Assembly: GCA_016215325.1 (NCBI GenBank)
Contig: JACRJV010000003.1
Coordinates: 36,191-100,190 of the forward strand
Source of the DNA: Candidatus Uhrbacteria bacterium
GTDB taxonomy: Bacteria > Patescibacteriota > Patescibacteriia > JACRJV01
Length of the DNA stretch: 64,000 nucleotides
Direction of reading: 5' to 3'
Shown here: positions 3,241 through 24,834 of the stretch, piece after piece
Layout of the letters: the number at the start of each line of letters is the position of its first letter
Position numbering within the stretch: the first letter of the stretch is position 1
The notes under the pieces: model-generated
Database searches by the model: none
The model's input: the letters and a program-made list of their open reading frames with translations, nothing else
Told to the model about the DNA's origin: nothing
Program-made: the position numbers and the translations under genes

Positions 3241-3595
3241 ACAGAATCGTTACAAATGCAATCGCATATTCTTTGCTATGCGAAAGACTCACTGAAATCT
3301 GAAGGCTCTTTTGTTTTTTTGGCAATCGCATAAACGGTACCCCCTTCTCGTTGTTGCAAATCTCGATCGTGCAATACCCAACGGCATGGATTCCTATACT
3401 AGCAAGCGCTTTTACAGCGGCCTCTTTCCCACAAAACCGTACGGCTAAATGTTGGGCGGGATCTTTTTTCGAAAAACAATAATTGAGCTCTCGGATCGTA
3501 AAAATCCGTTCCAAAAAATGACGATCGTGCGTCCGACGGAGATGGCGAAACCGCGATATGGCTTCAATGTCAACCCCTATGCCAATACATTCCAT
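3227..3595 (-). CDS. acpS: Holo-ACP synthase (4'-phosphopantetheinyl transferase, AcpS type)
   Basis: IGIGVDIEAISRF and KEAAVKALA motifs; ~120 aa from internal start MECIGIG. Confidence 0.75.
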   Translation of the reverse strand: MECIGIGVDIEAISRFRHLRRTHDRHFLERIFTIRELNYCFSKKDPAQHLAVRFCGKEAAVKALASIGIHAVGYCTIEICNNEKGVPFMRLPKKQKSLQISVSLSHSKEYAIAFVTILYDRT

Positions 3596-3737
3596 GCGAA
3601 TAAATGAGAATCTAGACAGTTTGTTGTAGACACCGATACATAGAGAATATCGTACCACCCCCTGCTACTCGAGTCAAAAGCCAACTTGCACTCAATATAC
3701 CGCCCGAACACGCTCTCAAATTTCGATTCGCCATCGC

Positions 3738-3768
3738 TTGACAGTACACACCTCTGCTTTCATACTAT
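3738..3768 (+). promoter_or_regulatory. Candidate sigma70-like promoter for the plus-strand methyltransferase gene
   Basis: TTGACA (3738-3743), 19-nt spacer, TACTAT (3763-3768) in the divergent intergenic region; GGGGGG SD-like run ~10 nt before the GTG start. Confidence 0.3.
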
Positions 3769-3822
3769 GGAATACACGCGCTAGTCCGTTCCCGACCAGA
3801 CACTAGGGGGGTAGCGCCACCC

Positions 3823-4623: not shown

Positions 4624-4640
4624 TCACACAACGAGAGATG

Positions 4641-5774: not shown

Positions 5775-5813
5775 AGTATTACAAAGATGTTATTTCAAAC
5801 AACATTTATCCAT

Positions 5814-7848: not shown

Positions 7849-7864
7849 CGTAGTATCTTACTGA

Positions 7865-9907: not shown

Positions 9908-9914
9908 ACAATGT

Positions 9915-11009: not shown

Positions 11010-11919
11010 ATGAAATGTTCTTTTCTTGCACAAGCCGAGCGATATCGGCAATAGTGATGTATTGGAGCTCCCTCCCCTGTACTCGGGCTTCTTGTGAAAT
11101 AAAAACAATATTGGCTATTGCCTCCTTACAATCGAACGAAATGAGAGGATGTTTTGTACCTCGCTCCAACAACTCGGAGGGATGGACGATCGCGACCAAC
11201 AACTCTTCCTGTTGAATGCTCTGGACAATTGATTCTTTTACAATTGCATTGCGATAAGACAAATTGAGGTATCGAAACAAACCGCTGCGGTCATAACTCG
11301 CCTTCGTATAAATCATCGACATCGGTACCTCGAGAATCGGATGTGCGGGAGCGCTAGGGATTCTGTAATCGTGAAGTGACGGGAAATACGGTTCGCTTGG
11401 CGTTCCGGTCCAGTCTAATGTTCTTTCTCGATCATGACGAACTCTGCCCGGCAAGGCGGTAGAATCGACCCGGAGTCCCCACCCCGCGAGTGCGGCCATT
11501 AAAGAATTGCTGTGGAACGCATTGCCGACTCGCACAGAAGCGCAATGAACTTCTTGCTCTTGGAGCGCTTGGAATGATGCCTGAAGTTCATCCAACTCAG
11601 TGACATGAGGGTGCCAACCAATCTCATCACCGCACTGCGCGCGACCACGAAGAAACGTCTTGAATCGCTCAAATAGATAGAGCGATGTGCCATAGATCCG
11701 GTAGAGCCCCGTATCAGAACGCACAAACCAAGTAAATCTCGGCCGCCGACCTCTGGAATCTTCAAGACGCGCAGTATCCACTGCGGTAAGTAACGATGGA
11801 ATCCCCTGCTCAACCCCACGCCACGAAATATTCAGCGCGGGTCCAAATATTGAAGTGTCAAAATTATCGGGATCGAGATCAATGGTGATGGCAACATAGA
11901 GAGGTGATTCAGCCATATC
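10978..11919 (-). CDS. Polysaccharide deacetylase (CE4/NodB-like) family protein
   Basis: VAITIDLDPDNF N-terminal motif and His-rich segments (GWHPHV) typical of CE4 deacetylases; start trimmed to MAESPLY. Confidence 0.5.
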   Translation of the reverse strand, partial: DMAESPLYVAITIDLDPDNFDTSIFGPALNISWRGVEQGIPSLLTAVDTARLEDSRGRRPRFTWFVRSDTGLYRIYGTSLYLFERFKTFLRGRAQCGDEIGWHPHVTELDELQASFQALQEQEVHCASVRVGNAFHSNSLMAALAGWGLRVDSTALPGRVRHDRERTLDWTGTPSEPYFPSLHDYRIPSAPAHPILEVPMSMIYTKASYDRSGLFRYLNLSYRNAIVKESIVQSIQQEELLVAIVHPSELLERGTKHPLISFDCKEAIANIVFISQEARVQGRELQYITIADIARLVQEKNISYAPNVPQTRS

Positions 11920-12547
11920 ATTTTTTCCCCCAGCCTTGAAAATCTTTGTACAAATAAACGGCAAATTCAAAAAGGGGGTAATCGTGTCGGAGTGCCACCC
12001 TTTTTGTCAAGCTCTTACAAAAAGAAAAAATCTCTTCAGGACTATAATAATGCAAATGTGGTTCCTTAAAATCAACATACTTCGTCAGCATATCGATGAC
12101 GACCCCTTTCCGGCAAAGCGCATAACTGCGAGTGAGCACATCTCGCAGAACCTTCTCATTATCATTATACGCGAGCGCATTATTAAACGTTTGTGAAGAA
12201 ACGATGTAATCAAACGTACCAGGGACAGTGTCAGTCTGAATATCTGCAACAAGAAATGTCAGGTCAGGGAATTGTTCCTGGCAGATGTTTATAAATTGCG
12301 GACAAATGTCAATACCGGTGTATTGAACGTGAAGGCCCTGATCTTTGAGGTACGTATAGAAATCCGCGAATCCACACCCAATATCCAAGATCGATTGATC
12401 CTCAAGGTTGCCAACGTCGGCGAGCACCTTGAATCGCATTTGTTGGCGTTCGCGATTACCAGATGCTAAGGCCCTGACATCAACTCCATACGCCTCTAAG
12501 CGAACCTTATACCGTTCGATGATCCGCTGTTTATCTCTTGCATCCAT
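11918..12547 (-). CDS. Class I SAM-dependent methyltransferase
   Basis: SAM-binding motif ILDIGCGFADF followed by acidic loop YTGIDI; 209 aa. Confidence 0.7.
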   Translation of the reverse strand: MDARDKQRIIERYKVRLEAYGVDVRALASGNRERQQMRFKVLADVGNLEDQSILDIGCGFADFYTYLKDQGLHVQYTGIDICPQFINICQEQFPDLTFLVADIQTDTVPGTFDYIVSSQTFNNALAYNDNEKVLRDVLTRSYALCRKGVVIDMLTKYVDFKEPHLHYYSPEEIFSFCKSLTKRVALRHDYPLFEFAVYLYKDFQGWGKK

Positions 12548-12559
12548 ACTCCACTCACG

Positions 12560-13750
12560 CTATCCAAGTTCGATAACGACTGCTTGTTCGGCTTGGGCCA
12601 AACGAGCCTCGGCCTCTTCTGCGTTTTCGGCCATCGAAATGATGTGCCCGATGCGATCGGCACCAGAAGTTAATGTTCGCACGGGATCTCCGGGTTTCAC
12701 ATAGATCTCCATTTCATAGATTCCCTCCATCGCTCGTGCTGTTTCAACACCAGTGATGGCATGGATGCGCCCGCTAGACGGGGAGGCAAAGAATTTTATC
12801 GATGAAGCCAGTTGCTTCGTGGGGATGAGATCGGGCGGTAGGCCCAACGAAGCTTTAATCGTCGCTTGGATGAGATCAATACCAGAAATCATTGGGAGTA
12901 TGTCAGTAAAAACCTTGAACCCGGGGCCTCGCGCCGCTAGTTCAACTGGAACGGGTCCGTCTTTTGTCATCATGAGCTCCATATGCACTGGCCCAGTAGT
13001 AATTCCCACTGCAGTAATCGCATGCTTTGCCACAGCGATAATACGCTGTTGAACGAGAGAAGGATACCGCGATGGGAAGGTTACTTGAATATCTAAAAGG
13101 TAGGGTGGAGGTGTTCTTTTTTTATCAGAAAGACCAATGATACGAATCGTTCCCCGATCGACGAATGCCTCCACGCTCACTTCTATACCCTCCATAAAAT
13201 CTTCCACAACGACTTTCTTTTTCTGAGAATACCCAATGGCACATTCGTATGCTTCTTTCAACTCCATTTCATGGGTCACTTTTCGTACGCCCCGGCTGCC
13301 TGCACTATCCGCAGGCTTAACAACCACCGGCAGTCCGATTTTATCAACAACAGCAAGTAAGGTGGAAAAGTCTAAAACAGGGTATGATGTCGGGGAAGGT
13401 ACCCCGTGGGCCACAAATGCCTGACGCATGAGTGCTTTATCGGTACACCGCTCAGCGACTGACACCGGAATCCCGGGTAATTGGAGTGCTTCGGCAATCG
13501 CCGCAACCGTTTTTACCGTAACGTCGGAGGCAACTGTAACCACCCCGTCAATGGAACAGGAACGCGCTATCTCCAGATTTTGTTCAATATCCTTTACATC
13601 CACAACAAATGCTCTATCCGCATATCGTAACCCCGGCGCCTCTGCGCTCCCATCTGTTGCCACGACCGCGAGTCCCATCTTTTTTGCGGTCTGAATCCCC
13701 TTCAACTGGAAAGGGCCGGCGCCGATGCACAGAAGTGTTTTGGTGTTCAT
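12560..13750 (-). CDS. ATP-grasp domain ligase (carboxylate-amine ligase type)
   Basis: PVVVKPADSAGSRGV and EEFMEGIEVSVEAF-like ATP-grasp core; 396 aa; embedded between pseG-like and methyltransferase. Confidence 0.7.
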   Translation of the reverse strand: MNTKTLLCIGAGPFQLKGIQTAKKMGLAVVATDGSAEAPGLRYADRAFVVDVKDIEQNLEIARSCSIDGVVTVASDVTVKTVAAIAEALQLPGIPVSVAERCTDKALMRQAFVAHGVPSPTSYPVLDFSTLLAVVDKIGLPVVVKPADSAGSRGVRKVTHEMELKEAYECAIGYSQKKKVVVEDFMEGIEVSVEAFVDRGTIRIIGLSDKKRTPPPYLLDIQVTFPSRYPSLVQQRIIAVAKHAITAVGITTGPVHMELMMTKDGPVPVELAARGPGFKVFTDILPMISGIDLIQATIKASLGLPPDLIPTKQLASSIKFFASPSSGRIHAITGVETARAMEGIYEMEIYVKPGDPVRTLTSGADRIGHIISMAENAEEAEARLAQAEQAVVIELG

Positions 13751-14763
13751 ACTAATGATGCATGGCGTATGAGTTCCTTTCGGATAATCTCAAGCACGCG
13801 CTCTCTCCCGTGACCATCGACAAGTTGCTGTGCTCGATGACCCATGGCTTCGCGATCGTGCCAATGCTTAATAAGCCTCTGGACGCGTTGTACATGATTC
13901 CCCTGCGTTGTCTGCCGCGATTCTAGCAGAAGTACCCCTCCCTTCTTCGCAATGCTTCTGGCAAGCAGGAGTTCCGCATTATTTTGAGGAATAATCACAC
14001 ATGGACAACCGAGGGCCATTAATTCCGCCAAAGTGACTCCAGCTCCACAAAATGCGATATCGATGGAACCCATGAGCGCGCCCATCTCTTGAACATTCGT
14101 CTCGATTCTGTATCGATGGTTCTTCCCAAGCCGATATTCCACTCCTTTGCGAAATTTGGGTCCCACAATAACATACACGCTTACCGGAGGGTGTGCAAGA
14201 CGCTCAAGAATAGCAATGGATTTCTGCGTGTTATTGCGAGGGTCTGCACCGCCAAATGTCAATAACACCCGCCTGGCCATACCCTGAGAAAATGATTTTT
14301 GCTTCCGATACGACAGCACCTCGTCCCGCACAATAGAATACTCGAGCCCTTCATAAATTCTCCTAAACAAAACGCTTTGGCCCTTCTTTAGATTATGATT
14401 GTAAATGTTGATTGCCGCGCAGATGCGTGGATCTTGGTAGTAAAAATAATCAAGTGCGACTACCGGTGGGTGAGGAACGCCGTAGAATGACTCCATCATC
14501 CCCAGCGCATACGGCTTGTCATAGATAATCAGATTTGGGTAATAAGAAAGAATGGTCTGTCGGAGAGTACCCTGAACAATATTCCGCACACCCTCTTGCT
14601 GCAGTTTCCGATACACCTGCCTCGTTACCCCTGCTGCGTGAAAAATCACCTCATGGTTGAGTGCCAACGCACGATACAGACTGATATCGCGCACAATATG
14701 CCCCAAGCCTTGGAGGTGACTTCCGTAACTACTTATTAGAATAGTATAGTGTTGGTGTTTCAT
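13747..14763 (-). CDS. pseG: PseG-like UDP-sugar hydrolase (GT-B fold, MurG-like)
   Basis: ILISSYGSHLQGLGHIVRDISL matches the PseG N-terminal G-GH--RD motif; LLTFGGAD and C-terminal GAGVTLAEL collinear with C. jejuni PseG. Confidence 0.65.
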   Translation of the reverse strand: MKHQHYTILISSYGSHLQGLGHIVRDISLYRALALNHEVIFHAAGVTRQVYRKLQQEGVRNIVQGTLRQTILSYYPNLIIYDKPYALGMMESFYGVPHPPVVALDYFYYQDPRICAAINIYNHNLKKGQSVLFRRIYEGLEYSIVRDEVLSYRKQKSFSQGMARRVLLTFGGADPRNNTQKSIAILERLAHPPVSVYVIVGPKFRKGVEYRLGKNHRYRIETNVQEMGALMGSIDIAFCGAGVTLAELMALGCPCVIIPQNNAELLLARSIAKKGGVLLLESRQTTQGNHVQRVQRLIKHWHDREAMGHRAQQLVDGHGRERVLEIIRKELIRHASLV

Positions 14764-15824: not shown

Positions 15825-16583
15825 TTACGATGAACCCTTCTCTGCGCTCAGTGACTTCAGGAGACCTTCATTACGAACAATATGACTGTTGGTTGCCATC
15901 ATCTCAGGATGTGCCGAAAGGTATTGCAGAACGTCTTCTCCTGTAAACTCCGGATGCCGCGGGTACAGGGCCTCAATAATTATTTTTACTACCTCAAAAT
16001 CCTCGGGCTCATCCACGGTAATCCGAAATCTGCTGTCATCGCTTCCATTGTCAAGGGTATGCTTACGAAAGAACTCAGAATGACGATGCAAATACAGTGT
16101 AGCATGCTCGCGCTCAGAAGGTTTTATCGCCTCTTTCCAAGCGCGCTCGAGTGCCGCCAATGTAAATATTTCACAATCAAGTCCTTCGGCAAATGTTGGA
16201 CCGCTATGAACAAAATCATACGCCCCATTCTGGAATGTCGTAACAAGCCGATCGACGATTTGAGGATCGATCAGTGGACAATCACCAGTAATCCGGACAA
16301 TTGGGTCAATCGAAAACCGCAAGGCAGTTTGATAATAGCGATCCAGCACATCCTGCTCTAATCCACGAAATACCGGAACGCGTTGCTGCGCGCAGAAATC
16401 CACAATTTGGTCATCCTCAACATTCGTCGTTGTCGCTACAATAATGCGATTAATTCCAGTTGCACGCCGGAGACGCTCAAGCTGATACTCAAGGAGGGGC
16501 CGACCAAGTACTGTTTTGAGTACTTTACCCGGAAGCCTTGTCGAAGTCATCCTCGCTTGGATAATTGCGCCGGTCGTGGCCAT
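15825..16583 (-). CDS. pseF: CMP-nonulosonic acid cytidylyltransferase (PseF/NeuA/SpsF family)
   Basis: N-terminal AIIQARMTSTRLPGKVL cytidylyltransferase motif; 252 aa. Confidence 0.8.
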   Translation of the reverse strand: MATTGAIIQARMTSTRLPGKVLKTVLGRPLLEYQLERLRRATGINRIIVATTTNVEDDQIVDFCAQQRVPVFRGLEQDVLDRYYQTALRFSIDPIVRITGDCPLIDPQIVDRLVTTFQNGAYDFVHSGPTFAEGLDCEIFTLAALERAWKEAIKPSEREHATLYLHRHSEFFRKHTLDNGSDDSRFRITVDEPEDFEVVKIIIEALYPRHPEFTGEDVLQYLSAHPEMMATNSHIVRNEGLLKSLSAEKGSS

Positions 16584-17512
16584 ACTAATGGATTTACTAT
16601 ACGTTCATTAATGTCCCGAAAGTGCTCACGTACATATCCGACAAGAGCCGGAGGGTATTCACGTTGCCAAGCCCGACAATTTGTCTCTACCTGGTCAAGG
16701 GTCTCAGCCCCAAACAAAATCTTTGCCTGTGGAAATGCCAGCTTCAAATAGCCAAACGCAAATTCCTGCCGCGTGAGCTCAAATATTCCTGCCGCCTCTT
16801 CAACAAGTTCGAGTGAAGGGCGAGCGAACGTCATTGTCTCAGGAAGTTGGCGCGAATCGATAAAGAGTAATCCTTGAAGAAATGCGCTTCGAATATAGAC
16901 CGTCGCGCTCTTTTTTTTCGCGAGCTCAAAAACCCCTGCACTCTCAAATCTCCTGTCTAAAATGTTGGTTGGAAGTTGAATTATGGTAAGCCCATCCAAC
17001 TCAAGTGCTCGGAGCGCTATGGAAGGAGTGTACACAGAAACCCCCACATAATCAACATAACCTTGAGAGACTAAATCCTTGAGTATTCTCCCCAACCCCT
17101 TCCCCCATAATCCAAGCAGTTCTTCGCGATGCAAAAGTACACCGTGGAGTTTCTTCACTCCAAGACGTACACACGACGCTTGGATCGCATCAGTAATTGC
17201 CCTCGCATCTAAGTAATCAAGGTTTGGATCGAGCTTTGTAATGAGCTTCGCCGTGCCCCCCGCGTTCAATACTCTAAGAGCTTCCCCTAAAACAGCTTCA
17301 CTCTCTCCATACCCCGGGGCAGTATCAAACTCGTCGATTCCGTGCTCCAAAGCAGTACGGACAATTTCTTCCGCTATCTCATGATTCGGCTGCCCATTTT
17401 TATTAGCGATGCCATAGGGCATACCAAGCTGCACTGTCCCAAGTACGAGTGCTGGAAGACTCTTTCTCGCGTTACTAGTCATATCATTATGCAAGACGCC
17501 GAAATCCTGCAT
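16547..17512 (-). CDS. Aldo/keto reductase
   Basis: LGTVQLGMPYG and DTAPGYGESE AKR motifs. Confidence 0.75.
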   Translation of the reverse strand: MQDFGVLHNDMTSNARKSLPALVLGTVQLGMPYGIANKNGQPNHEIAEEIVRTALEHGIDEFDTAPGYGESEAVLGEALRVLNAGGTAKLITKLDPNLDYLDARAITDAIQASCVRLGVKKLHGVLLHREELLGLWGKGLGRILKDLVSQGYVDYVGVSVYTPSIALRALELDGLTIIQLPTNILDRRFESAGVFELAKKKSATVYIRSAFLQGLLFIDSRQLPETMTFARPSLELVEEAAGIFELTRQEFAFGYLKLAFPQAKILFGAETLDQVETNCRAWQREYPPALVGYVREHFRDINERIVNPLVWPRPAQLSKRG

Positions 17513-18812
17513 TCGCAGGTTTACCGTTTAGCCTTTTTTCCACGTCTCCAGCACGAATTGCAACAGCGATTTCCCCAAACGCACGGTCCGTTGCCTCCAA
17601 ATACTTTACAACATGATCACTCGTATGTGCGTACATTGCATAGCAAAGATTGGATGCTAAAAATCCTTGCTCCAACATAAGCTGTACATATAATGCTTTG
17701 ATCGCCAGAGGATGTTCATGCTCAAAGTTGAAGTGACTTGCGGGATAAATACCGCCGACGTTGATTGTAAGGGCGTGACGCTGCGCAATCTGCTTCCAGC
17801 CCTCTTGTACCTGTTTCCCAATCTTAACCAAATGTTTACCTACATTCAACGTACGATGCTTCTGTATTGTGGCAAGCGCCGCCGTTGGCCCAACCCTCTC
17901 CGACCACATCGTGCTGCTCATAAACGTAAGTTCTGCAGCATCCATAAATTGCCCTTTCCCAATAACCGCAGCAATCGGATACCCATTCCCCATCGCCTTC
18001 GAGAACACCGCGATATCAGGAGTAAGTCCATACAAAAGATGGGCACCTCCGGAATTTAACCGGAACGCCGCGGACACTTCATCCACAACAAGGACAGCTC
18101 CTGCTTCATCCGCAAGCGCACGAACCCCCGGGAGAAATTCTGGCGTTGGGTCACTTCCTCGAATCGGTTCAATTACAATTGCCGCCAAATCCTTGCCGTG
18201 CTCTTTAATAATCGTTTTTAATATGTCAAGGCGGTTATAGGGGAACGGTACGACGGTGCCGCGAAGCCCTCGCGGCACTCCTCTTGGCTCTAACCCCGGA
18301 AGAAGAAGATCATTGAGTCCATCGGGTCGCTCAAGATTCACAGCAAGATACCAATCATTCCAACCATGGTACCCACAAACTGCCACAATATCACGACCAG
18401 TGAAGGCTCGTGCAATCCGAACCGCAATGGCCATCCCCTCCCCTCCTCCTCGCGCGAAACGCACCTTTTCTGCCCACGGATGAATCTCACAAAGCAAATC
18501 CGCGAGCTCGACTTCTTCAGGGCAATTCAGCGAGCTACTGGAGCCATTGTCTATAGCTGCTGTAACCGCGGCATTCACATCAGGATCGGCATACCCCAGC
18601 ACATTTGCACCAATCCCACCAATACTCATGTCAATGTACCGGTTGCCATCTAAGTCCCACACTTCCACCCCCTTCGCTCGCTGATAATACCCCGGCCATA
18701 CTCCAAGCGAAAACATGTCAGGACGCTTAGATAACAGCTGATTCATTCCTGGGATTCTACGTTTCGACGCTTCTTGCATTGCTAGACTTTTGGTGAGATT
18801 CATAAGCTTCAT
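17487..18812 (-). CDS. Class III aminotransferase, glutamate-1-semialdehyde aminomutase-like
   Basis: DLDGNRYIDMSIG, GGGEGMAIAVRIAR and VVDEV...FSKAMGNG (PLP-Lys) motifs; 441 aa. Confidence 0.75.
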   Translation of the reverse strand: MKLMNLTKSLAMQEASKRRIPGMNQLLSKRPDMFSLGVWPGYYQRAKGVEVWDLDGNRYIDMSIGGIGANVLGYADPDVNAAVTAAIDNGSSSSLNCPEEVELADLLCEIHPWAEKVRFARGGGEGMAIAVRIARAFTGRDIVAVCGYHGWNDWYLAVNLERPDGLNDLLLPGLEPRGVPRGLRGTVVPFPYNRLDILKTIIKEHGKDLAAIVIEPIRGSDPTPEFLPGVRALADEAGAVLVVDEVSAAFRLNSGGAHLLYGLTPDIAVFSKAMGNGYPIAAVIGKGQFMDAAELTFMSSTMWSERVGPTAALATIQKHRTLNVGKHLVKIGKQVQEGWKQIAQRHALTINVGGIYPASHFNFEHEHPLAIKALYVQLMLEQGFLASNLCYAMYAHTSDHVVKYLEATDRAFGEIAVAIRAGDVEKRLNGKPANAGFRRLA

Positions 18813-20941
18813 ATATGAGACCTAACGAGGGCGGTAATTTCGTCGATAACCCTGCCAACATCGCGATCTGTCATCAGCGGACTCAGCGGTATAGAGAGAC
18901 ACCGCCGATAATACTCTTCGGCACGAGGACAATCCCCCCAATGCGTCCCAAACTGCTGCTGATAAAAAGGTTGTGTATGGACAGGTATGTAGTGAACTTG
19001 GGTTTGGATTCCACGATTGTTTAGATGCACCATGCATTCCGCACGACTTCTTCCAATTTTTTCAAAATCGATTCCGAGGACATAGAGATGAAAAATACTT
19101 TCACAATCCGGTGACTCGAACGGTCTCTGAATGCATGGAAGGTCTTGAAAAGCGCTCTGGTATTGTCGGACAATGGCTCGTCTCCTTGTCTGAAATAATT
19201 CTAATTTAGCAATTTGCGAAATCCCCAACGCGCATTGGATATCGGTAAGACGGTAATTATAGCCAAGTTCTTGCTGTTCATAGTACCAAGGATTAACCAT
19301 ACCCTCCCCTGAGCCACTGAATCCCTGTTGAAGATACACAAACTCCTTGGGGTCATTGGTGATCCCATGGGACCGTAACTTCCGCACCATCCTATCCAAG
19401 ACCGGATCATTGGTAAGCACCGCTCCACCTTCTCCGGTTGTGATGTGTTTTACTGGATGAAAGCTCATCACTACCATATCAGAAAATCGACAGGAACCCA
19501 CCGGCGTACCCTTATACCGAGAACCGAACACATGGCAGGCATCTTCGATAATAACGATACGGTGCCGATACTTCGCCTCCGCTTCTTTCACAATCTGGGC
19601 AATTGATTCCATATCACAACTCTGCCCGGCAAAGTGGACTGGAATAACGGCCTTGGTGCGTTGCGTAATTTTGCGCGCAATCTCAGCTGGAGCGATATTA
19701 TACGTATGCGGATCGATATCCGCAAAGATAGGCCTCCCACCACAATACACAACACAGTTTGCCGAGGCGACAAAGGTGTTCGGAGAGGTGATCACTTCAT
19801 CTCCAGGTCCTATGCCCGCAGCACGACAAGCAAGATGTAACGCTGAGGTGCCGGAATTCACCGCCACTGCGTAGCGTGACTCTGTAACGTTAGATATCGC
19901 CTCTTCAAAATGCTTCACGCGAGGTCCTTGAGTAAGGTGAGTCGACTTCAATGCCACTGTCACCGCTTCAATGTCATCCCCATCGATAGTGTGTCTCCCA
20001 TACGAAAGATATTTAGAGGGCTGCCGTATCGTTCCCGAGTTACGAAGAATATCTGTTCTTTGGTAATCTTTATAAAAACGTTCAATGGAATCCTTGATTG
20101 TGGGCATCGGCGTTGCCAACGCGTGTTCTAACTTATCGACACATAGTGATAGATTATGGCCCCTTGTTGCCAAAAAAGTATGCTCACTTAAAGAGTGTTT
20201 GATCACTTGTGAGGGATCAAAGCCGAATGTTGTTGCAACGAGGCGGGCGAACTCATACTTCGAACATGAATCGTGTGTGCCAATATTGTAGATCCCTTGC
20301 AAATCAGCACGCAGGGCCCATTCAATCACTCGTGCAACGTCAACGGCATAGAGCGAAGAAAAAACCGCATCATAAAATCCAGAAACAATCTCTCCCCGTT
20401 GAAGACGATGGAGGATCCATTCCGCCAAACTCTCTTTACTGAGAATATTCCAGCCAAAAAAATTTGCCCTAAGAATCAAAGCTGCGCTGACTCGCTCACA
20501 TTCGCGCTCGCCAAAATACTTGGTGAGGCCATAATAATTCTGAGGCGCGACAGGATCCAATTCGGAGTAATCCCCCTTGGTGCCTTGATAGACAGCATCG
20601 GTTGATATGTACACGAGTTTCGTTGGGGTTCCTCTGATGGCCTCGACAACATGTTTCGTTGTGAGATGGTTCATCTGCTGGCAAAGAGCCGTCTCCCGTT
20701 CGCATTGATCGACATTGGTAAGGGACGCGCAGTGTATTACAACATCCGGTTGAATTTCACTCACGATTCGTCTCGCCTCTTGCTGCTCACTCAAGTCACA
20801 TTGAACTGTAGAGGCCCCCTCAATAATAAGAGGATGCTGCCAATACAACCCAATGATTTCAAACGTATCCTTTAAAAAAAGAGCGAGATTACTCCCGAGA
20901 AGTCCACTCACGCCGGTAATAAGGATGCGCTGACGGGCCAT
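18809..20941 (-). CDS. Bifunctional fusion: N-terminal RmlD-like NAD(P)-dependent sugar reductase + C-terminal PseC/DegT-like aminotransferase
   Basis: N-term ILITGVSGLLGSNL...YISTDAVY...YGLTKY (SDR extended YxxxK); C-term VIPVHFAGQSCDM...SFHPVKHITTGEGGAV (DegT PLP-Lys). Confidence 0.75.
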   Translation of the reverse strand: MARQRILITGVSGLLGSNLALFLKDTFEIIGLYWQHPLIIEGASTVQCDLSEQQEARRIVSEIQPDVVIHCASLTNVDQCERETALCQQMNHLTTKHVVEAIRGTPTKLVYISTDAVYQGTKGDYSELDPVAPQNYYGLTKYFGERECERVSAALILRANFFGWNILSKESLAEWILHRLQRGEIVSGFYDAVFSSLYAVDVARVIEWALRADLQGIYNIGTHDSCSKYEFARLVATTFGFDPSQVIKHSLSEHTFLATRGHNLSLCVDKLEHALATPMPTIKDSIERFYKDYQRTDILRNSGTIRQPSKYLSYGRHTIDGDDIEAVTVALKSTHLTQGPRVKHFEEAISNVTESRYAVAVNSGTSALHLACRAAGIGPGDEVITSPNTFVASANCVVYCGGRPIFADIDPHTYNIAPAEIARKITQRTKAVIPVHFAGQSCDMESIAQIVKEAEAKYRHRIVIIEDACHVFGSRYKGTPVGSCRFSDMVVMSFHPVKHITTGEGGAVLTNDPVLDRMVRKLRSHGITNDPKEFVYLQQGFSGSGEGMVNPWYYEQQELGYNYRLTDIQCALGISQIAKLELFQTRRRAIVRQYQSAFQDLPCIQRPFESPDCESIFHLYVLGIDFEKIGRSRAECMVHLNNRGIQTQVHYIPVHTQPFYQQQFGTHWGDCPRAEEYYRRCLSIPLSPLMTDRDVGRVIDEITALVRSHI

Positions 20942-20956: not shown

Positions 20957-21991
20957 TCACTTTGGAACCTCATCCATCGACCATCGGATCTGCCCTTCTG
21001 CAATATCATGGGCAACCTGCGCGACGATCGAACGTAACTCTACAACACTCATCATCCAGGGGTTCGTTCCAGAATTATACTCAAAGTCCTCAGCACATTT
21101 TTGCACGTTTGGGTAGGAAAGGGCAGGGCTGGCGGCTGCATGCGGCTGGGCGATCACGTAGGAATGATCGAATTCCCAGGTGTGTCGAGCATCGTCCCGA
21201 CTAATGAGCAGCTCATGAATCTTTTCACCCGGACGAATGCCAACCACTTCTTGTCGACATTCCGGCGCCACCGCAGAAGCCAAATCGGTAATCTTCATTG
21301 ATGGAATTTTCGGTACAAAAATTTCTCCACCACGAGCGATCTCGAATACATTAAGAACAAAACGTACCCCTTGCTCAATAGTAATCCAAAAACGTGTCAT
21401 CTGCGGATCTGTGATGGGGAGCACACCTGTTTTGGATCGCTCTAAGAAAAATGGAATGACCGAACCACGGCTCCCGACCACATTACCGTATCGAACCACC
21501 GCGAAAATAGTTTCTTTCGACCCCCGATAAACATTCGCAGCAGTGAAGAGTTTATCTGAACAAAGTTTCGTTGCTCCATAGAGGTTGATAGGGTTACAGG
21601 CCTTATCAGTCGATAAAGCAACCACTTTTTTTACATTGGCAGTAAGCGCCGCCTCGATAATATTCATCGCTCCCAACACATTGGTTTTGATCGCTTCGGA
21701 GGGATTATATTCTGCCGCAGGTACCTGTTTGAGTGCCGCGGCATGAATAACATAATCAACCCCATCAAAGGCACGCAGGAGCCGTTCTTTGTCTCGGACA
21801 TCACCGATGAAATAACGAATACAGGGGTATTTCGATGTACTCCAACGTTGCGACATCTCGAATTGCTTTAACTCATCACGACTGAATACTATCAATCGCC
21901 TTGGTTTGTACTCTTGGAGTATCGCTTCGACCATCTTTTTCCCAAACGATCCTGTCCCCCCAGTAATGAGTACTGTTTTATCATTGAACAT
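20957..21991 (-). CDS. pseB: UDP-N-acetylglucosamine 4,6-dehydratase (inverting), PseB/FlaA1
   Basis: MFNDKTVLITGGTGSFGK N-terminus and overall collinearity with PseB/CapD short form. Confidence 0.9.
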   Translation of the reverse strand: MFNDKTVLITGGTGSFGKKMVEAILQEYKPRRLIVFSRDELKQFEMSQRWSTSKYPCIRYFIGDVRDKERLLRAFDGVDYVIHAAALKQVPAAEYNPSEAIKTNVLGAMNIIEAALTANVKKVVALSTDKACNPINLYGATKLCSDKLFTAANVYRGSKETIFAVVRYGNVVGSRGSVIPFFLERSKTGVLPITDPQMTRFWITIEQGVRFVLNVFEIARGGEIFVPKIPSMKITDLASAVAPECRQEVVGIRPGEKIHELLISRDDARHTWEFDHSYVIAQPHAAASPALSYPNVQKCAEDFEYNSGTNPWMMSVVELRSIVAQVAHDIAEGQIRWSMDEVPK

Positions 21992-22508
21992 AAGACGAAA
22001 TCGTTACTGTGGAACGAGGCGCATTGTCATGACCTCGAAACGCCCACCAACGATACATAAAAAAATTCCAACTAACCACGAATGGACCCGCAATAAGCTT
22101 TGCGATTATGTCATGGAAGCCCAAGAATTCAACACCGCTGTACAGAATCCCTTGAGCAATCGCAATACCACCAATGGTACTCATCACAAACTTCAGATAT
22201 TGAGCAGCACATCCACTCTGTTGTTGTTGGAACGCCCAATGTTTATTCCAAAAAAAACTCCACGTCACAACAATAGAAAATGAAATTCCGTTTGCTATCA
22301 AATAGTGCTCCTTCCAAAACATCCATCCACGAGTAAGCATCGAGTATATTGTAAAATCAATCAACGTATTCCCAACCCCGATAATGCCATACCGAATAAA
22401 GGAGTGAAACAAGGCAAGCACACGAACGTTGGTTTTAATTACGATAACAGATCGGCACCAAACGAACAACAACTCACAGTCGAAGGTACGAGACGTCCCG
22501 ACCCTCAA
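21981..22508 (-). CDS. GtrA-family membrane protein (polysaccharide synthesis/translocation associated)
   Basis: ~125-aa core with four predicted TM helices and RYGIIGVGNTLIDFTIY N-terminal GtrA pattern; true start probably a GTG/TTG downstream of the listed start (overlap with upstream gene). Confidence 0.5.
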   Translation of the reverse strand: MRVGTSRTFDCELLFVWCRSVIVIKTNVRVLALFHSFIRYGIIGVGNTLIDFTIYSMLTRGWMFWKEHYLIANGISFSIVVTWSFFWNKHWAFQQQQSGCAAQYLKFVMSTIGGIAIAQGILYSGVEFLGFHDIIAKLIAGPFVVSWNFFMYRWWAFRGHDNAPRSTVTISSYVQ

Positions 22509-23814
22509 ACAGTTGACCGCGAGAAAACACTCCCTTCACATCCATAAATACGCCGGGGTTATGCAGCAGGTATTCAAATTGCTGCGCATTCATTGAACGG
22601 AATACGCTGTGGGGCGAACACACCACCACGGCATCTGCTCGAGGGATATCGCGCAATTCCTGATAATACGAAATGGCACACGTCTCTCGGAGATCCTCGA
22701 TGGCAACAAGCGGATCGTAGCCACTGACCTTGACGCCGTACTCCTGCAATGCTCTTACGACGTCAAACGCTTTCGAGTTGCGAATATCGCGCACATCCTC
22801 TTTAAATGTAAGCCCCATGACCAGCACATGCGCATTTTGAATGGGTTTTCCCTGCTTAATAATCGCCTTCACTGTACGATCGGCCAAATGCTGCGCCATT
22901 GAATCATTAATATGCCGCCCGGCCAAAATCACCTGCGGGTCATAGCCTAGTTCTTGCGCTTTATGCGTTAAATAATACGGGTCAACCCCAATGCAATGCC
23001 CACCGACCAATCCGGGGGAATATTTATGGAAATTCCATTTGGTTCCGGCTGCATCAAGAACCTCACGCGTATCGATCCCAAGTTTCTCAAAAATCAACGA
23101 GCACTCATTGACGAGAGCAATGTTGAGGTCGCGTTGAATATTTTCAATCACTTTCGCCGCTTCCGCAGTTTTAATGTTGGATGCCCGGTGAACGCCATTG
23201 ACGCAAATGCGCCCATACACCATGGCAATTTTTTCAAGTGTTAGCGCATCCATCCCGGAAACAATTTTTACGATTTTATCAACGGTGTGTTCGTGATCAC
23301 CCGGATTGATGCGCTCCGGAGAGTACCCGATAAACCAATCCTTTCCGCACACCAACCCAGAACCCTTCTCAATAATCGGTACGCAGATATCTTCCGTGAC
23401 ACCCGGGTACACTGTCGATTCAAACACAACGATAGTCCCTGAACGGATATGGGCACCGATGGTTGTGGATACTTCAATCACCGGAGTTAAATCTGGTTGC
23501 TTTGCCTTTGTGATGGGTGTCGGCGGAGTCGCAATAATAAAATTCGCCCGCTCAAGTACTGCCGGGTCAGTGCTCAACTCAAGCATGCTCTCCGATAGCT
23601 GCTGCCGCGTTATCTCTCCGCCAGGATCATTACCGTCCTGAAGCGCCTTTACCCTTTTTTCGGAACGATTATACCCTATGACGGGCGCCCATTCGGTTCT
23701 GCCAAACGCCACTGCTAATGGCAAACCCACGTAACCCAAACCAACCACGGCTATCCGAGGTGTCCATGCAGGTTTTTCGATTTCGCTCTCAAGCCCGAGA
23801 GGAAGCATAGACAT
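22474..23814 (-). CDS. UDP-N-acetyl-D-hexosamine 6-dehydrogenase (WecC/WbpA/TviB nucleotide-sugar dehydrogenase family)
   Basis: IAVVGLGYVGLPLA NAD motif, catalytic GGHCIGVDP; 446 aa. Confidence 0.85.
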   Translation of the reverse strand: MSMLPLGLESEIEKPAWTPRIAVVGLGYVGLPLAVAFGRTEWAPVIGYNRSEKRVKALQDGNDPGGEITRQQLSESMLELSTDPAVLERANFIIATPPTPITKAKQPDLTPVIEVSTTIGAHIRSGTIVVFESTVYPGVTEDICVPIIEKGSGLVCGKDWFIGYSPERINPGDHEHTVDKIVKIVSGMDALTLEKIAMVYGRICVNGVHRASNIKTAEAAKVIENIQRDLNIALVNECSLIFEKLGIDTREVLDAAGTKWNFHKYSPGLVGGHCIGVDPYYLTHKAQELGYDPQVILAGRHINDSMAQHLADRTVKAIIKQGKPIQNAHVLVMGLTFKEDVRDIRNSKAFDVVRALQEYGVKVSGYDPLVAIEDLRETCAISYYQELRDIPRADAVVVCSPHSVFRSMNAQQFEYLLHNPGVFMDVKGVFSRGQLFEGRDVSYLRL

Positions 23815-23865
23815 CGTAGCAAGAGTAAAAGTAGTATAAACGAAGGCGTGACGACAAGCAAGGCC

Positions 23866-24834
23866 TCAATTCGACAATGCCGCTTGATAAGAGGATTGAT
23901 ACCATTCGATGAATCGGGGAATGCCTTCTTGGATTCTTGTCTTCGGCCCAAATCCTAAAAGCTCACGAGCCTTTGTAATATCTGCAGAGGTCGCTGGAAC
24001 GTCTCCTGGCTGGATGTCTTTATATATTTTTTTTGCCGTTTTTCCGACTTCGTTCTCGATGATGGTGATAAACTCCGTGAGTTGCTCGGTATGATTATTC
24101 CCAAGGTTGAGCACGTGGTATTCTCGGTCAGAGAGTTCTGTCGCGGCAACCGTGCCAAGGACAATATCATCGATATAGGTGAAATCTCGGCGCATGTCTC
24201 CCTTATTGTATACTTCAATAGGAGTGCCTTCGACAATCGCGCGTGTAAATTTGAATAACGCCATGTCTGGCCGACCCCATGGGCCATACACCGTAAAATA
24301 TCGCAAGCCAACGACAGGGAGGTGATAGAGATGGTGGTAGCTGTACGCCATGAGCTCGCACGCTTTTTTGGTTGCCGCATACGGCGAAATGGGGTGATCC
24401 ACTGGATCGTCTTCGGAGAACGGAAGCTTTTTATTATTCCCATACACCGAGGAACTGGACGCAAACACAAACCGTCCTACTCCACTGCGGACCGATAATT
24501 CAAGCATATTGGTCGTTCCACCGACATTCACTTCTTGGTATAACCGCGGATGTTCGAGTGACGCGCGCACCCCTGCGCGGGCCGCCAAGTGACACACCGC
24601 ATCAAAATGATACTGCCCAAAGACGCGCTCCAGCGCAGAGTAATCTCGAATATCTATACGATGGACTGGGATATCCAGCCCTTTGAGCAACACCTGAACC
24701 CGATCCTCTTTTAATTGCGGATCATAGTAATCGTTAAAGTCATCAACGATAACCACATGGTGCCCTCGCCGGCACAATTCCTTTGCCGTGTGGGAACCAA
24801 TAAACCCTGCTCCGCCGGTCACGAGGATGTTCAT
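23866..24834 (-). CDS. NAD-dependent epimerase, UDP-glucuronate 4-epimerase-like
   Basis: MNILVTGGAGFIGSH, YAATKKACE (YxxxK), collinear with Cap1J/UGA4E enzymes. Confidence 0.8.
   Translation of the reverse strand: MNILVTGGAGFIGSHTAKELCRRGHHVVIVDDFNDYYDPQLKEDRVQVLLKGLDIPVHRIDIRDYSALERVFGQYHFDAVCHLAARAGVRASLEHPRLYQEVNVGGTTNMLELSVRSGVGRFVFASSSSVYGNNKKLPFSEDDPVDHPISPYAATKKACELMAYSYHHLYHLPVVGLRYFTVYGPWGRPDMALFKFTRAIVEGTPIEVYNKGDMRRDFTYIDDIVLGTVAATELSDREYHVLNLGNNHTEQLTEFITIIENEVGKTAKKIYKDIQPGDVPATSADITKARELLGFGPKTRIQEGIPRFIEWYQSSYQAALSN

What the first reader, a model, noticed from the sequence alone, without database searches (positions are those of the whole stretch)
18809..20941. Unusual gene fusion: RmlD-like sugar reductase fused to a PseC-type aminotransferase
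A single 710-aa ORF joins an N-terminal extended-SDR domain (GxxGxxG, YxxxK; closest resemblance to dTDP-4-dehydrorhamnose reductase) to a C-terminal DegT/PseC aminotransferase, immediately after pseB. The 4-keto intermediate made by PseB could be either reduced or transaminated. Fusing both activities would create a branch point or a two-step conversion not present in canonical Pse/Leg pathways.
Basis: partly seen in the sequence, partly recalled or inferred. Interest (0 to 1): 0.5.

Follow-up and report, generated by a model that had tools for sequence, protein, structure and literature searches.

The report
RmlD-like reductase fused to PseC aminotransferase
A real and widely conserved two-enzyme fusion in a sialic-acid-like (pseudaminic acid type) sugar pathway, whose extra reductase half belongs to an unstudied enzyme subfamily that accompanies such pathways in many uncultured bacteria and has no assigned role.

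Summary
Window 18809-20941 (-) is one uninterrupted 710-aa ORF. It has an RmlD-type extended-SDR domain (aa 1-295), a disordered ~16-aa linker, and a PseC aminotransferase (aa 312-710, above NCBI's PseC cutoff). It lies 15 nt after a canonical pseB.

It is not an assembly artefact and it is not rare. At least 119 independent protein clusters, and 38 of 80 species-level genome loci recovered, carry the same fusion. Catalytic Ser/Tyr/Lys and the PLP lysine are invariant. The public record of this contig hides the fusion by starting the gene at Met279.

The reductase half is not true RmlD (150 bits, cutoff 224) and not a Pal orthologue. It belongs to a distinct subfamily (~1,200 clusters at 50% identity) that is usually stand-alone. 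It is wedged after a PseB- or LegB-type dehydratase and/or directly before NeuB, as an extra gene in otherwise complete Pse or Leg clusters. The fused form co-occurs strongly with a class-III aminotransferase, an aldo/keto reductase and an SpsF-like cytidylyltransferase.

Most likely (about 0.4) it is an NAD(P)H 4-ketoreductase acting on the PseB product, which makes the protein a branch point. Biochemistry is untested and rival roles remain. Moderate interest.

The parts
18809..20941 (-). Whole 710-aa fusion ORF (stop codon 18809-18811)
   Evidence: Full-length homologues at 53-58% identity and 98-100% coverage.
20057..20941 (-). N-terminal RmlD-like extended-SDR domain, aa 1-295
   Evidence: Pfam RmlD_sub_bind 152 bits. 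rmlD equivalog 150 bits, cutoff 224. Best PDB match is RmlD 3sc6. AF2 pLDDT is mostly 90-98.
20894..20914 (-). NAD(P)-binding glycine motif TGVSGLLG (G10, G13, G16)
   Evidence: Invariant or nearly invariant in 120 fusion sequences and in 40 subfamily members.
20519..20605 (-). Catalytic region Ser113-Thr114-Asp115 ... Tyr137-x3-Lys141
   Evidence: Aligns with STD...YxxxK of RmlD structures. S113, D115, Y137 and K141 are invariant in 120 sequences; residue 114 is Thr in 99 and Ser in 21.
20009..20056 (-). Inter-domain linker, aa 296-311
   Evidence: pLDDT below 50 for aa 297-309. Mean identity to homologues is 17%, against 48% for the N-domain and 62% for the C-domain. No stop or frameshift.
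20105..20107 (-). Met279, the internal start used by the public annotation (MBI5134710.1, 432 aa)
   Evidence: This position is Leu in 91 of 120 homologues, so it is not a conserved start.
18812..20008 (-). C-terminal PseC aminotransferase domain, aa 312-710
   Evidence: TIGR03588 at 491 bits, cutoff 423.5. Foldseek to ArnB and H. pylori PseC 2fn6, TM 0.92-0.94 of target.
19448..19450 (-). Lys498 in the SFHPVKHITTGEGG motif (PLP Schiff-base lysine of DegT-family enzymes)
   Evidence: Invariant in 120 sequences. Its assignment as the Schiff-base lysine rests on knowledge of the family.
20957..21991 (-). pseB, UDP-GlcNAc 4,6-dehydratase (inverting)
   Evidence: TIGR03589 at 506 bits, cutoff 408. 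371 bits to FlaA1 2gn4 vs 243 bits to Pen 6bwc.
17487..18812 (-). Class-III (GSA-aminomutase-like) aminotransferase; its start overlaps the fusion's stop in an ATGA overlap
   Evidence: Co-occurs with the fused form in 18/21 loci, against 3/28 for the stand-alone form.
16547..17512 (-). Aldo/keto reductase
   Evidence: Fused to SDR::PseC in P0111. Present in 12/21 fused loci vs 3/28 stand-alone loci.
15825..16583 (-). SpsF-like CTP_transf_3 cytidylyltransferase (presumed CMP-nonulosonate synthetase; not PseF by model)
   Evidence: SpsF role described in PMC7439481.
14760..15818 (-). NeuB-family nonulosonate synthase
   Evidence: PseI model 345.7 bits, cutoff 340; NeuB model 357 bits, cutoff 400.
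13747..14763 (-). Divergent PseG-like UDP-sugar hydrolase
   Evidence: TIGR03590 at 69 bits (cutoff 154) and Glyco_tran_28_C at 29.5 bits.

Best explanation
SHOWN: the ORF encodes a genuine, selectively maintained bifunctional protein. An RmlD-clade extended SDR with intact cofactor and catalytic motifs is flexibly tethered to a bona fide PseC aminotransferase. It is translated from one operon with pseB upstream, and with a class-III aminotransferase, an aldo/keto reductase, an SpsF-like CMP-transferase, a NeuB/PseI-type synthase and a PseG-like hydrolase downstream. INFERRED: PseB converts UDP-GlcNAc to UDP-2-acetamido-2,6-dideoxy-beta-L-arabino-hex-4-ulose. The C-domain transaminates C4 to give the normal pseudaminic acid precursor. 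The N-domain, like every characterised catalytic member of its clade, uses NAD(P)H to reduce the same C4 ketone to a hydroxyl, giving a UDP-6-deoxy-L-HexNAc. The fusion is therefore a branch-point enzyme that splits one unstable intermediate into a 4-amino and a 4-hydroxy product. The 4-hydroxy product would serve either as a second glycan building block or, after hydrolysis and NeuB condensation, as a 7-hydroxy-9-deoxy nonulosonic acid. The N-domain belongs to a distinct, uncharacterised SDR subfamily that accompanies nonulosonate clusters in many phyla. The fusion to PseC is one labile arrangement of it.
For: Reality of the fusion.
Both domains are under purifying selection. 68 N-domain and 133 C-part columns are at least 95% conserved, and the window keeps 66 and 130 of them.
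RmlD-clade membership: the subfamily profile scores 184-204 bits to RmlD and MAT2B structures, against at most 85 bits to other SDRs. The Pfam RmlD_sub_bind match runs end to end. S/T-Y-K and GxxGxxG are invariant.
Coupling to the dehydratase product: PseB lies directly upstream in 22/27 fused and 12/38 stand-alone loci. The SDR also follows LegB-type dehydratases (L020, L038). The PseB-SDR pair persists without PseC in Scalindua L006, beside a LegB-LegC set.
It is an extra gene in otherwise complete Pse sets (window, L026, L028) and a complete Leg set (L038), as expected for a side branch.
Rare SDR::GT2 fusions suggest the product can go straight to a glycosyltransferase.
The flexible linker and pTM of 0.57 fit two independent active sites sharing a diffusible substrate.
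A trideoxy (7-hydroxy) nonulosonate exists in nature, the fusaminic acid counterpart (PMC7371886).
Against: No enzyme of this subfamily has been assayed. Fusing two enzymes that compete for one substrate is unusual; fusions more often join consecutive steps.
In 18/42 stand-alone loci the SDR lies directly before NeuB. In L090 the cassette SDR-NeuB-GNAT-CTase has no dehydratase or aminotransferase within 10 kb, which ties it to the synthase rather than to PseB.
A PseH-like GNAT, which needs a 4-amino group, travels with the SDR.
The tight link of the fused form to a class-III aminotransferase and an AKR (p = 1.4e-7 and 1.2e-3) is not explained by a simple branch.
The N-domain fails the RmlD equivalog cutoff. 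It does not match the NCBIfam model for the known reductase of this very ketone (NF047837, no hit at E <= 0.01).
Confidence: 0.4

Rival explanations
1. Late-acting modifier. The SDR domain does not touch the PseB product. It reduces (or oxidises) a later intermediate such as the free or CMP-activated nonulosonic acid, or a keto-acyl group on its nitrogen. It works with the aldo/keto reductase, the class-III aminotransferase and the GNAT to make a new derivative or stereoisomer. Fusion to PseC only ensures co-expression or complex formation.
For: SDR-NeuB adjacency occurs in 18/42 stand-alone loci. There is a self-contained SDR-NeuB-GNAT-CTase(-Maf) cassette next to flagellar genes or flanked by housekeeping genes. 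The fused form is strongly associated with the class-III AT and the AKR. A triple fusion SDR::PseC::AKR exists, and a CTase::AKR fusion is reported in Vibrio (PMC7371886). The partner NeuB, GNAT and CTase all fall below the curated NeuB/PseI, PseH and PseF cutoffs, suggesting a different product. SDR-type dehydrogenases are proposed to convert CMP-legionaminic acid to acinetaminic acids (PMC5595891).
Against: Canonical nonulosonates and their CMP esters have no free ketone for an RmlD-type reductase. All characterised catalytic members of the RmlD clade act on NDP-4-keto-6-deoxyhexoses. This reading does not explain why the gene so often directly follows a PseB- or LegB-type dehydratase.
Confidence: 0.25
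2. In-line two-step enzyme. The SDR domain prepares the substrate of the fused PseC. One version is analogous to B. thuringiensis Pal, which turns the Pen product into the 4-keto sugar. Another is analogous to ArnA-type C4 oxidation ahead of ArnB. The fusion would then join consecutive reactions.
For: The gene and domain order dehydratase - SDR - aminotransferase mirrors pen-pal-pam (PMC5109656, PMC8987622, PMC7439481). The same order is seen in Leg-type loci (L038, L020). Fusions usually link sequential steps. Pen and PseB share the same catalytic motif, so sequence alone cannot fully exclude Pen-like behaviour.
Against: Pal (6bwl) matches the subfamily profile at only 67.5 bits, over the Rossmann half only, against 184-204 bits for RmlD and MAT2B. 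The window's PseB is much closer to FlaA1/PseB than to Pen (371 vs 243 bits) and passes the PseB equivalog cutoff, so the 4-keto sugar should already be made. The short RmlD architecture is typical of reductases with exchangeable cofactor, not of redox-neutral enzymes. The SDR also occurs without any adjacent aminotransferase.
Confidence: 0.12
3. Non-catalytic module. The SDR domain is an NAD(P)(H)-binding regulatory or scaffolding domain, as MAT2B (an RmlD-fold protein) is for methionine adenosyltransferase. It would tune PseC or NeuB activity to redox state.
For: MAT2B structures score almost as well as RmlD against the subfamily profile (188 vs 198-204 bits). The SDR travels with NeuB even without a dehydratase.
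Against: The catalytic Ser, Tyr and Lys are invariant across 120 fusions and 40 diverse stand-alone members, together with many pocket residues. This is the pattern of an active enzyme.
Confidence: 0.05
4. Artefact. A frameshift, a misassembly or a read-through call joins two separate genes.
For: The public annotation of this contig calls only a 432-aa PseC.
Against: The reading frame is uninterrupted. 119 full-length homologues from independent assemblies and 38 fused ORFs in species-representative genomes exist. Both domains are conserved. Met279 is not conserved as a start.
Confidence: 0.01

Closest known systems
PseC (UDP-4-amino-4,6-dideoxy-N-acetyl-beta-L-altrosamine transaminase; H. pylori HP0366, PDB 2fn6)
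   Same: The C-terminal 399 aa pass the curated PseC model (491 bits, cutoff 423.5). They have the same fold and the invariant PLP lysine, and they follow pseB in a cluster with a PseI-type synthase.
   Different: Canonical PseC is a stand-alone protein of about 375 aa. Here it carries a 295-aa SDR domain at its N-terminus.
RmlD (dTDP-4-dehydrorhamnose reductase; PDB 3sc6, 2ggs, 1kbz)
   Same: It is the closest solved fold and sequence. The Pfam RmlD_sub_bind match runs end to end, with the same GxxGxxG and STD...YxxxK catalytic residues.
   Different: It scores below the RmlD equivalog cutoff (150 vs 224). There are no rmlA/B/C genes in the cluster. Genuine rfbD genes reach only about 100-120 bits, whereas subfamily members reach 180-330 bits. 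The context is UDP-HexNAc and nonulosonate genes, not dTDP-rhamnose.
Pen/Pal/Pam seven-enzyme Pse pathway of Bacillus thuringiensis
   Same: An extra SDR gene lies between the PseB-like dehydratase and the aminotransferase, in the same gene order (PMC5109656, PMC8987622).
   Different: Pal is a GalE-like SDR related only at superfamily level (67.5 bits). The dehydratase here is PseB-like, not Pen-like. Pal is not fused to Pam.
4,6-dehydratase plus 4-reductase routes to 6-deoxy-HexNAc (WbvB/WbvR, FnlA/FnlB, Pdeg/Preq for UDP-QuiNAc)
   Same: The logic is the same as in the leading explanation: a UDP-HexNAc 4-keto intermediate is reduced at C4 by a separate SDR (own knowledge; UDP-QuiNAc route in PMC4514872, listed).
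   Different: No homology could be tested for WbvR or Preq because no reference sequences were available. The NCBIfam model for the FnlB/WbcJ-type reductase of this ketone does not match. None of those reductases is fused to an aminotransferase or embedded in a nonulosonate cluster.
Vibrio B9-25K2 Pse-type nab cluster (Sci Rep 2020, PMC7371886)
   Same: It is a Pse-type cluster with PseB and PseC, an SpsF-like cytidylyltransferase fused to an aldo/keto reductase, and an extra 'dehydrogenase'. The authors flagged these as of unknown function.
   Different: The arrangement there is a CTase::AKR fusion with a separate dehydrogenase, rather than SDR::PseC. I could not verify whether that dehydrogenase belongs to the same SDR subfamily.

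Membership tests
PseC (TIGR03588 equivalog) | Whole-protein score at or above the curated cutoff | tested here: met
   491.2 bits vs cutoff 423.5, aa 312-704 on profile positions 2-378 of 380.
PseC (TIGR03588 equivalog) | Fold-type I sugar aminotransferase fold with the PLP-binding lysine | tested here: met
   Foldseek TM 0.92-0.94 (of target) to ArnB and PseC 2fn6/2fnu. Lys498 is invariant in 120 sequences.
PseC (TIGR03588 equivalog) | Encoded with pseB and a pseudaminic acid synthase | tested here: met
   PseB at 506 bits (cutoff 408) directly upstream. A NeuB-family gene scores 345.7 bits on the PseI model (cutoff 340).
PseC (TIGR03588 equivalog) | Transaminates UDP-2-acetamido-2,6-dideoxy-beta-L-arabino-hex-4-ulose | not testable with these tools
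   Needs an enzyme assay.
RmlD (dTDP-4-dehydrorhamnose reductase, TIGR01214) | Whole-protein score at or above the curated cutoff | tested here: not met
   150 bits for the isolated N-domain vs cutoff 224. NF007440 at 61 bits vs cutoff 308.
RmlD (dTDP-4-dehydrorhamnose reductase, TIGR01214) | Extended-SDR reductase motifs: GxxGxxG and Ser/Thr-Tyr-Lys | tested here: met
   G10/G13/G16, S113/T114, Y137 and K141 align with RmlD 3sc6 and are invariant.
RmlD (dTDP-4-dehydrorhamnose reductase, TIGR01214) | Genomic association with rmlA, rmlB and rmlC | tested here: not met
   No NTP_transferase (RmlA), RmlB or dTDP_sugar_isom (RmlC) gene among the 20 cluster genes scanned. The neighbours are Pse-pathway genes.
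Pal (B. thuringiensis UDP-6-deoxy-GlcNAc-5,6-ene 4-oxidase/5,6-reductase/5-epimerase) | Orthology to Pal (PDB 6bwl) | tested here: not met
   67.5 bits over profile positions 3-150 only, rank 24, vs 184-204 bits for RmlD and MAT2B.
Pal (B. thuringiensis UDP-6-deoxy-GlcNAc-5,6-ene 4-oxidase/5,6-reductase/5-epimerase) | Partner dehydratase of the Pen (5,6-dehydratase) type | tested here: inconclusive
   The window's PseB scores 371 bits to FlaA1 vs 243 bits to Pen. However, Pen and PseB share the same catalytic motif, so function cannot be read from sequence alone (PMC8987622).
FnlB/WbcJ-type UDP-2-acetamido-2,6-beta-L-arabino-hexul-4-ose reductase (NF047837) | Match to the curated model | tested here: not met
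   Absent from the list of families matching the N-domain at E <= 0.01.
WbvR/QnlB-type UDP-HexNAc 4-reductase | Sequence relationship to a characterised member | not tested
Nonulosonate-associated RmlD-like SDR subfamily (uncharacterised; defined here) | At least ~150 bits to subfamily members, clearly above the score to true RmlD; motifs ITGxSGLLGxNLA, HCA..CE, YIS[TS]DxVY, NxYGxxKxxGE, RxNxFGWN, KxSxxEW | tested here: met
   180-332 bits to the 150 best representatives, against 99 bits to the best RmlD structure. Motifs shown.
Nonulosonate-associated RmlD-like SDR subfamily (uncharacterised; defined here) | Encoded next to a PseB/LegB-type dehydratase and/or a NeuB-family synthase | tested here: met
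   Gene-order census of 87 loci.

The most novel reading that the evidence does not exclude
The RmlD-like SDR marks a third, unrecognised and very widespread type of nonulosonic acid pathway. It has a canonical PseB but non-canonical synthase, GNAT, aminotransferase and CMP-transferase, plus one or two extra reductases. It would make a sugar not yet described from these organisms, for example a 7-hydroxy-9-deoxy ('trideoxy', fusaminic-type) nonulosonate or a new stereoisomer. It is used on flagellins and cell surfaces from gut Clostridia to anammox bacteria, CPR bacteria and DPANN archaea. The SDR::PseC fusion would be the enzyme that decides between the 7-amino and 7-hydroxy series.
Probability: 0.25. 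Interest if true: 0.7.

Novelty: new variant of a known kind. Interest (0 to 1): 0.5.

Why it matters
Nonulosonic acids (sialic, legionaminic and pseudaminic acids) decorate flagella, capsules and S-layers and shape recognition by hosts, phages and immune systems. Their pathways are thought to be well understood as six-enzyme routes. This work shows that a large part of environmental and gut diversity carries an extra, conserved RmlD-like reductase, here fused to PseC. It is often accompanied by an aldo/keto reductase and a class-III aminotransferase, and none of these has an assigned step. The fusion gives a compact recombinant target in which a transaminase of known function is tethered to the unknown reductase, so the reductase's substrate can be tested directly with PseB and UDP-GlcNAc. 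The case also exposes a systematic annotation blind spot. PGAP names these proteins only as PseC, and in this very contig it truncates the gene, so the reductase domain is invisible in public records.

Tried and rejected
1. Frameshift or artefact: rejected.
2. True RmlD of a rhamnose pathway: rejected. It is below the equivalog cutoff, there are no rmlABC genes, and plasmid and chromosomal rfbD genes score only ~100-120 bits.
3. Pal orthologue, or a Pen/Pal split of the PseB step: homology rejected. It is kept only as a low-probability functional analogy.
4. SDR + AKR as a replacement for the PseG hydrolase: rejected. PseG-like genes co-occur with both in at least 10 loci and in the window.
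5. A single origin of the fusion: not supported. Fused and stand-alone SDRs interleave in an NJ tree, although resolution is low.
6. A fixed inter-domain channel: no support. The linker is disordered and pTM is 0.57.
7. Literature searches for PseC+RmlD+fusion, nonulosonic + dTDP-4-dehydrorhamnose reductase, WbvR, and fusaminic acid biosynthesis found no description of this enzyme or subfamily. The two primary Pen/Pal papers were not held.
8. Exact-sequence look-ups of the window protein and of P0001 in the contig index found nothing.
9. The first genome scan, with a 40-sequence alignment, failed for lack of a conserved stretch. It was repeated with 8 sequences.
10. The regex count of 'AT3' also matched 'GNAT3' and is disregarded.
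11. The AKR has no solved relative at E <= 1e-10.

Full report
**1. The observation**

The window contains a single ATG-initiated ORF at 18809..20941 on the minus strand, encoding 710 aa.
- Pfam places RmlD_sub_bind end to end on aa 5-294 (152 bits) and DegT_DnrJ_EryC1 on aa 319-702 (397 bits).
- NCBIfam places the PseC equivalog TIGR03588 on aa 312-704 at 491 bits (cutoff 423.5). The rmlD equivalog scores only 147-150 bits (cutoff 224).
- The junction DNA reads straight through, with no stop or frame change.
- The gene starts 15 nt after the stop of a canonical pseB (TIGR03589, 506 bits, cutoff 408). Its stop overlaps the ATG of the next gene in an ATGA overlap, as in a translationally coupled operon.

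**2. Is the fusion real?**

- Of the 120 best hits among 5.8 billion proteins, 119 are full-length fusions (698-1043 aa, 53-58% identity, 98-100% coverage). They come from independent NCBI, JGI, ENA and Logan assemblies of Desulfobacteraceae, Nitrospirae, Ca. Scalindua and others. JGI already labels them 'PseC transaminase/dTDP-4-dehydrorhamnose reductase'.
- A scan of one genome per GTDB species with the SDR domain returned 80 loci. In 38 of them the SDR and a PseC of at least 390 bits lie in one stop-free ORF.
- Across 120 sequences, 68 N-domain and 133 C-part columns are at least 95% conserved. The window's copy keeps 66 and 130 of them.
- G10/G13/G16, Ser113, Asp115, Tyr137, Lys141 and the PLP lysine Lys498 are invariant. 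The linker is only 17% identical on average.
- AlphaFold2 with a 99-sequence alignment folds both domains confidently (mean pLDDT 87). The linker 297-309 is disordered and pTM is 0.57, which means a flexible tether rather than a fixed interface. No solved structure covers both halves.
- The one 100%-identical public protein (MBI5134710.1, 'Candidatus Uhrbacteria bacterium') is only 432 aa because it was started at Met279. That residue is Leu in most homologues. PGAP names full-length homologues simply as PseC. The fusion is thus hidden in the public annotation.

**3. What the N-domain is**

- Its closest solved relatives are RmlD enzymes (3sc6, 99 bits; catalytic STD...YxxxK aligned) and the RmlD-fold protein MAT2B.
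- An exhaustive HMMER search of 1.84 billion representatives found 1,224 clusters at E <= 1e-30. The best 150 score 180-332 bits and are mostly stand-alone proteins of about 300 aa at 31-49% identity. This is far above what genuine RmlD reaches: 99 bits to the best RmlD structure and about 100-120 bits for plasmid-borne rfbD genes.
- It is therefore a distinct RmlD-like subfamily, not RmlD itself (equivalog cutoff failed; no rmlABC genes nearby).
- It is not an orthologue of Pal, the second SDR of the seven-enzyme B. thuringiensis Pse pathway. Pal (6bwl) scores 67.5 bits over the Rossmann half only, against 184-204 bits for RmlD and MAT2B (pathway described in PMC5109656, PMC8987622 and PMC7439481).
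- The window's PseB is much closer to H. pylori FlaA1/PseB (371 bits) than to Pen (243 bits).
- The N-domain does not match the NCBIfam model of the FnlB/WbcJ-type reductase of the same ketone.
- Other fusions of the subfamily exist: GNAT::SDR, SDR::GT2 (three clusters) and a 1043-aa SDR::PseC::AKR.

**4. Genomic context**

I profiled 87 loci with iterated searches seeded from the window's genes.
- The fused form has the consensus order PseB - SDR::PseC - class-III aminotransferase - AKR - SpsF-like CTase - (PseG) - NeuB - GNAT. This is the window's own order.
- In fused loci with enough flanking sequence, PseB is directly upstream in 22/27. The class-III aminotransferase is present in 18/21, the CTase in 18/21, NeuB in 16/21 and the AKR in 12/21.
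- In stand-alone loci the class-III aminotransferase and the AKR are each present in only 3/28. Fisher tests give p = 1.4e-7 and 1.2e-3.
- The stand-alone SDR appears in four arrangements:
  - PseB-SDR-NeuB-GNAT-AKR-DegT-CTase, in gut metagenomes L085/L086, the isolate Desulfuribacillus stibiiarsenatis L087 and Bacteroidota L082.
  - A compact SDR-NeuB-GNAT-CTase cassette. It sits beside FlaG/FliD/FliS in the isolate Helicovermis profundi, beside flagellin and a Maf-type transferase in a Lachnospiraceae MAG, and between housekeeping genes only in an Oscillospiraceae MAG.
  - Inserted between LegB and LegC of a complete Campylobacter-type legionaminic acid cluster (L038).
  - As a PseB-SDR pair without PseC, next to LegB-LegC, in Scalindua L006.
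- A PseC that passes the strong-match criterion is never found unfused next to this SDR.
- In an NJ tree the basal clades are stand-alone, and fused and stand-alone forms interleave. Fusion and fission have therefore occurred repeatedly, though resolution is limited.
- In the cassettes PseB is canonical (527 bits). The synthase, GNAT, DegT and CTase all fall below the NeuB/PseI, PseH, PseC and PseF cutoffs.
- The literature held here contains no description of an RmlD-like enzyme in nonulosonate clusters. The nearest remark is a Vibrio Pse-type cluster with an SpsF-like CTase::AKR fusion and an extra 'dehydrogenase' of unknown function (PMC7371886). A GSA-aminomutase-like gene between PseG and a cytidylyltransferase is also reported in Legionella serogroup 6 (PMC3694923).

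**5. How it most likely works**

Shown: this is a bifunctional protein with an intact RmlD-type reductase site and an intact PseC site, co-transcribed with pseB.

Inferred from the RmlD clade (my own knowledge of RmlD and related NDP-4-keto-6-deoxyhexose 4-reductases): the N-domain uses NAD(P)H to reduce a C4 ketone of a nucleotide-linked 6-deoxy sugar. The only such ketone made in this operon is the PseB product, UDP-2-acetamido-2,6-dideoxy-beta-L-arabino-hex-4-ulose, which is also the PseC substrate.

The protein would thus partition that intermediate between a 4-amino sugar (leading to a pseudaminic-type acid) and a 4-hydroxy sugar (a UDP-6-deoxy-L-HexNAc). The 4-hydroxy sugar would be used as a donor or turned by NeuB into a 7-hydroxy-9-deoxy nonulosonate. 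A trideoxy counterpart of fusaminic acid shows that such sugars exist (PMC7371886).

Support:
- The SDR is positioned behind dehydratases of two different types.
- It is an 'extra' gene in otherwise complete Pse and Leg sets.
- The PseB-SDR pair survives without PseC.
- The tether is flexible.

I put this at about 0.4, because four things remain unexplained:
- Competing enzymes are rarely fused.
- The SDR is at least as tightly linked to NeuB as to PseB.
- A PseH-like GNAT travels with it.
- The strong link of the fused form to a class-III aminotransferase and an AKR is not accounted for.

Rival explanations:
- A late-acting reductase that works on the nonulosonate or its N-acyl group together with the AKR and class-III AT (0.25).
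- An in-line Pal- or ArnA-like step feeding PseC (0.12).
- A MAT2B-like non-catalytic module (0.05).
- An artefact (0.01).

**6. Comparison with what is known, and verdict**

The C-domain is a member of PseC by every testable criterion. The N-domain works like, but is not a member of, RmlD. It is neither Pal nor the FnlB/WbcJ type. It belongs to an uncharacterised subfamily associated with nonulosonate clusters.

The finding is a new variant of a known kind: a Pse-type pathway with an additional, fused reductase. The architecture itself is already present, unstudied, in public databases, so it is not categorically new. Interest is moderate (0.5). A glycobiologist would not be astonished by another SDR in a sugar cluster. 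However, the breadth of the subfamily, the absence of any assigned step and the ready testability make it a worthwhile target. If the subfamily defines a new nonulosonate series (probability about 0.25), interest would rise to about 0.7.

Noticed in passing
window 20105-20107 (Met279 of the ORF 18809-20941): The public protein record for this contig (MBI5134710.1, Candidatus Uhrbacteria MAG) starts the gene at an internal Met and is only 432 aa, so the SDR domain is unannotated. PGAP names full-length homologues only as PseC.
   Followed up: yes
window 15825-18812 (three genes, minus strand): A trio of class-III (GSA-aminomutase/GenB-like) aminotransferase, aldo/keto reductase and SpsF-like cytidylyltransferase follows the fusion. 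It is statistically tied to the fused form (18/21 vs 3/28 loci for the aminotransferase). The function of the aminotransferase and the AKR in a nonulosonate pathway is unknown.
   Followed up: partly
L001 10001-13132 (protein P0111): A 1043-aa triple fusion SDR::PseC::AKR. Other fusions occur in the same pathway family: NeuB::CTase (L014, L018), CTase::class-III AT (L032), PseG::GNAT (L028), GNAT::SDR (P0252) and SDR::GT2 (P0168, P0390, P0391).
   Followed up: partly
window 1492-13750: Downstream of the PseG-like gene lie a LAL-type ATP-grasp ligase, a methyltransferase, an ORF with no Pfam match, two partial-match DegT-like genes, a 680-aa HMGL-like/DmpG_comm aldolase-type protein, FemAB-like and other GNATs, and an FkbH-like protein. 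No PseH-type (Acetyltransf_3) GNAT was seen in the scanned cluster genes (window 1.5-25.6 kb). This suggests an unusual N-acyl (possibly aminoacyl, methylated) substituent on the sugar.
   Followed up: no
window 1-24000 vs 24000-58000: The glycan gene island has lower G+C (0.46-0.50) than the adjoining housekeeping region (0.51-0.58). This is compatible with horizontal acquisition.
   Followed up: no
window 39587-49894 (-): A 3,435-aa ORF with fn3, IPT/TIG, CARDB and DUF4215 repeats is probably a giant cell-surface protein and a candidate glycosylation target. An LCP-family (LytR_cpsA_psr) ligase lies at 54719-56152.
   Followed up: no
window 61617-63761 (-): A SecD/SecF-type protein carries a PPIC-type peptidyl-prolyl isomerase domain between the SecD N-terminal P1 segment and the P1 head. 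This is an unusual-looking architecture and I did not examine it further.
   Followed up: no
window 21981-24834 and 27185-28477: Upstream of pseB lie a GtrA-family membrane protein, a TviB-like UDP-GlcNAc 6-dehydrogenase (427 bits, below the TviB cutoff of 592) and a GalE/TviC-like epimerase. A second UDP-glucose/GDP-mannose dehydrogenase lies further on. These suggest that an N-acetylhexosaminuronic acid is made alongside the nonulosonate.
   Followed up: no
L089 8267-11495; L091 10001-14587; L090 10001-13215: A minimal four-gene cassette CTase/SDR/NeuB/GNAT (plus a Maf-type MptE-like transferase in L091) sits next to flagellar genes in Clostridia. In L090 it is flanked only by housekeeping genes, with no dehydratase or aminotransferase within 10 kb.
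   Followed up: partly
L038 8960-16721: A complete Campylobacter-type legionaminic acid cluster (LegB, LegC, NeuC-type epimerase, NeuB, PglD-like acetyltransferase, PtmE-like NTP-transferase with a CBS domain, CMP-transferase) has the RmlD-like SDR inserted between LegB and LegC.
   Followed up: partly
L062 (Nanoarchaeota MAG), L044 and L012 (Parcubacteria/Uhrbacteria MAGs): The SDR-containing nonulosonate clusters also occur in DPANN archaea and CPR bacteria. These organisms have very reduced genomes, so the investment in this surface sugar is notable.
   Followed up: no
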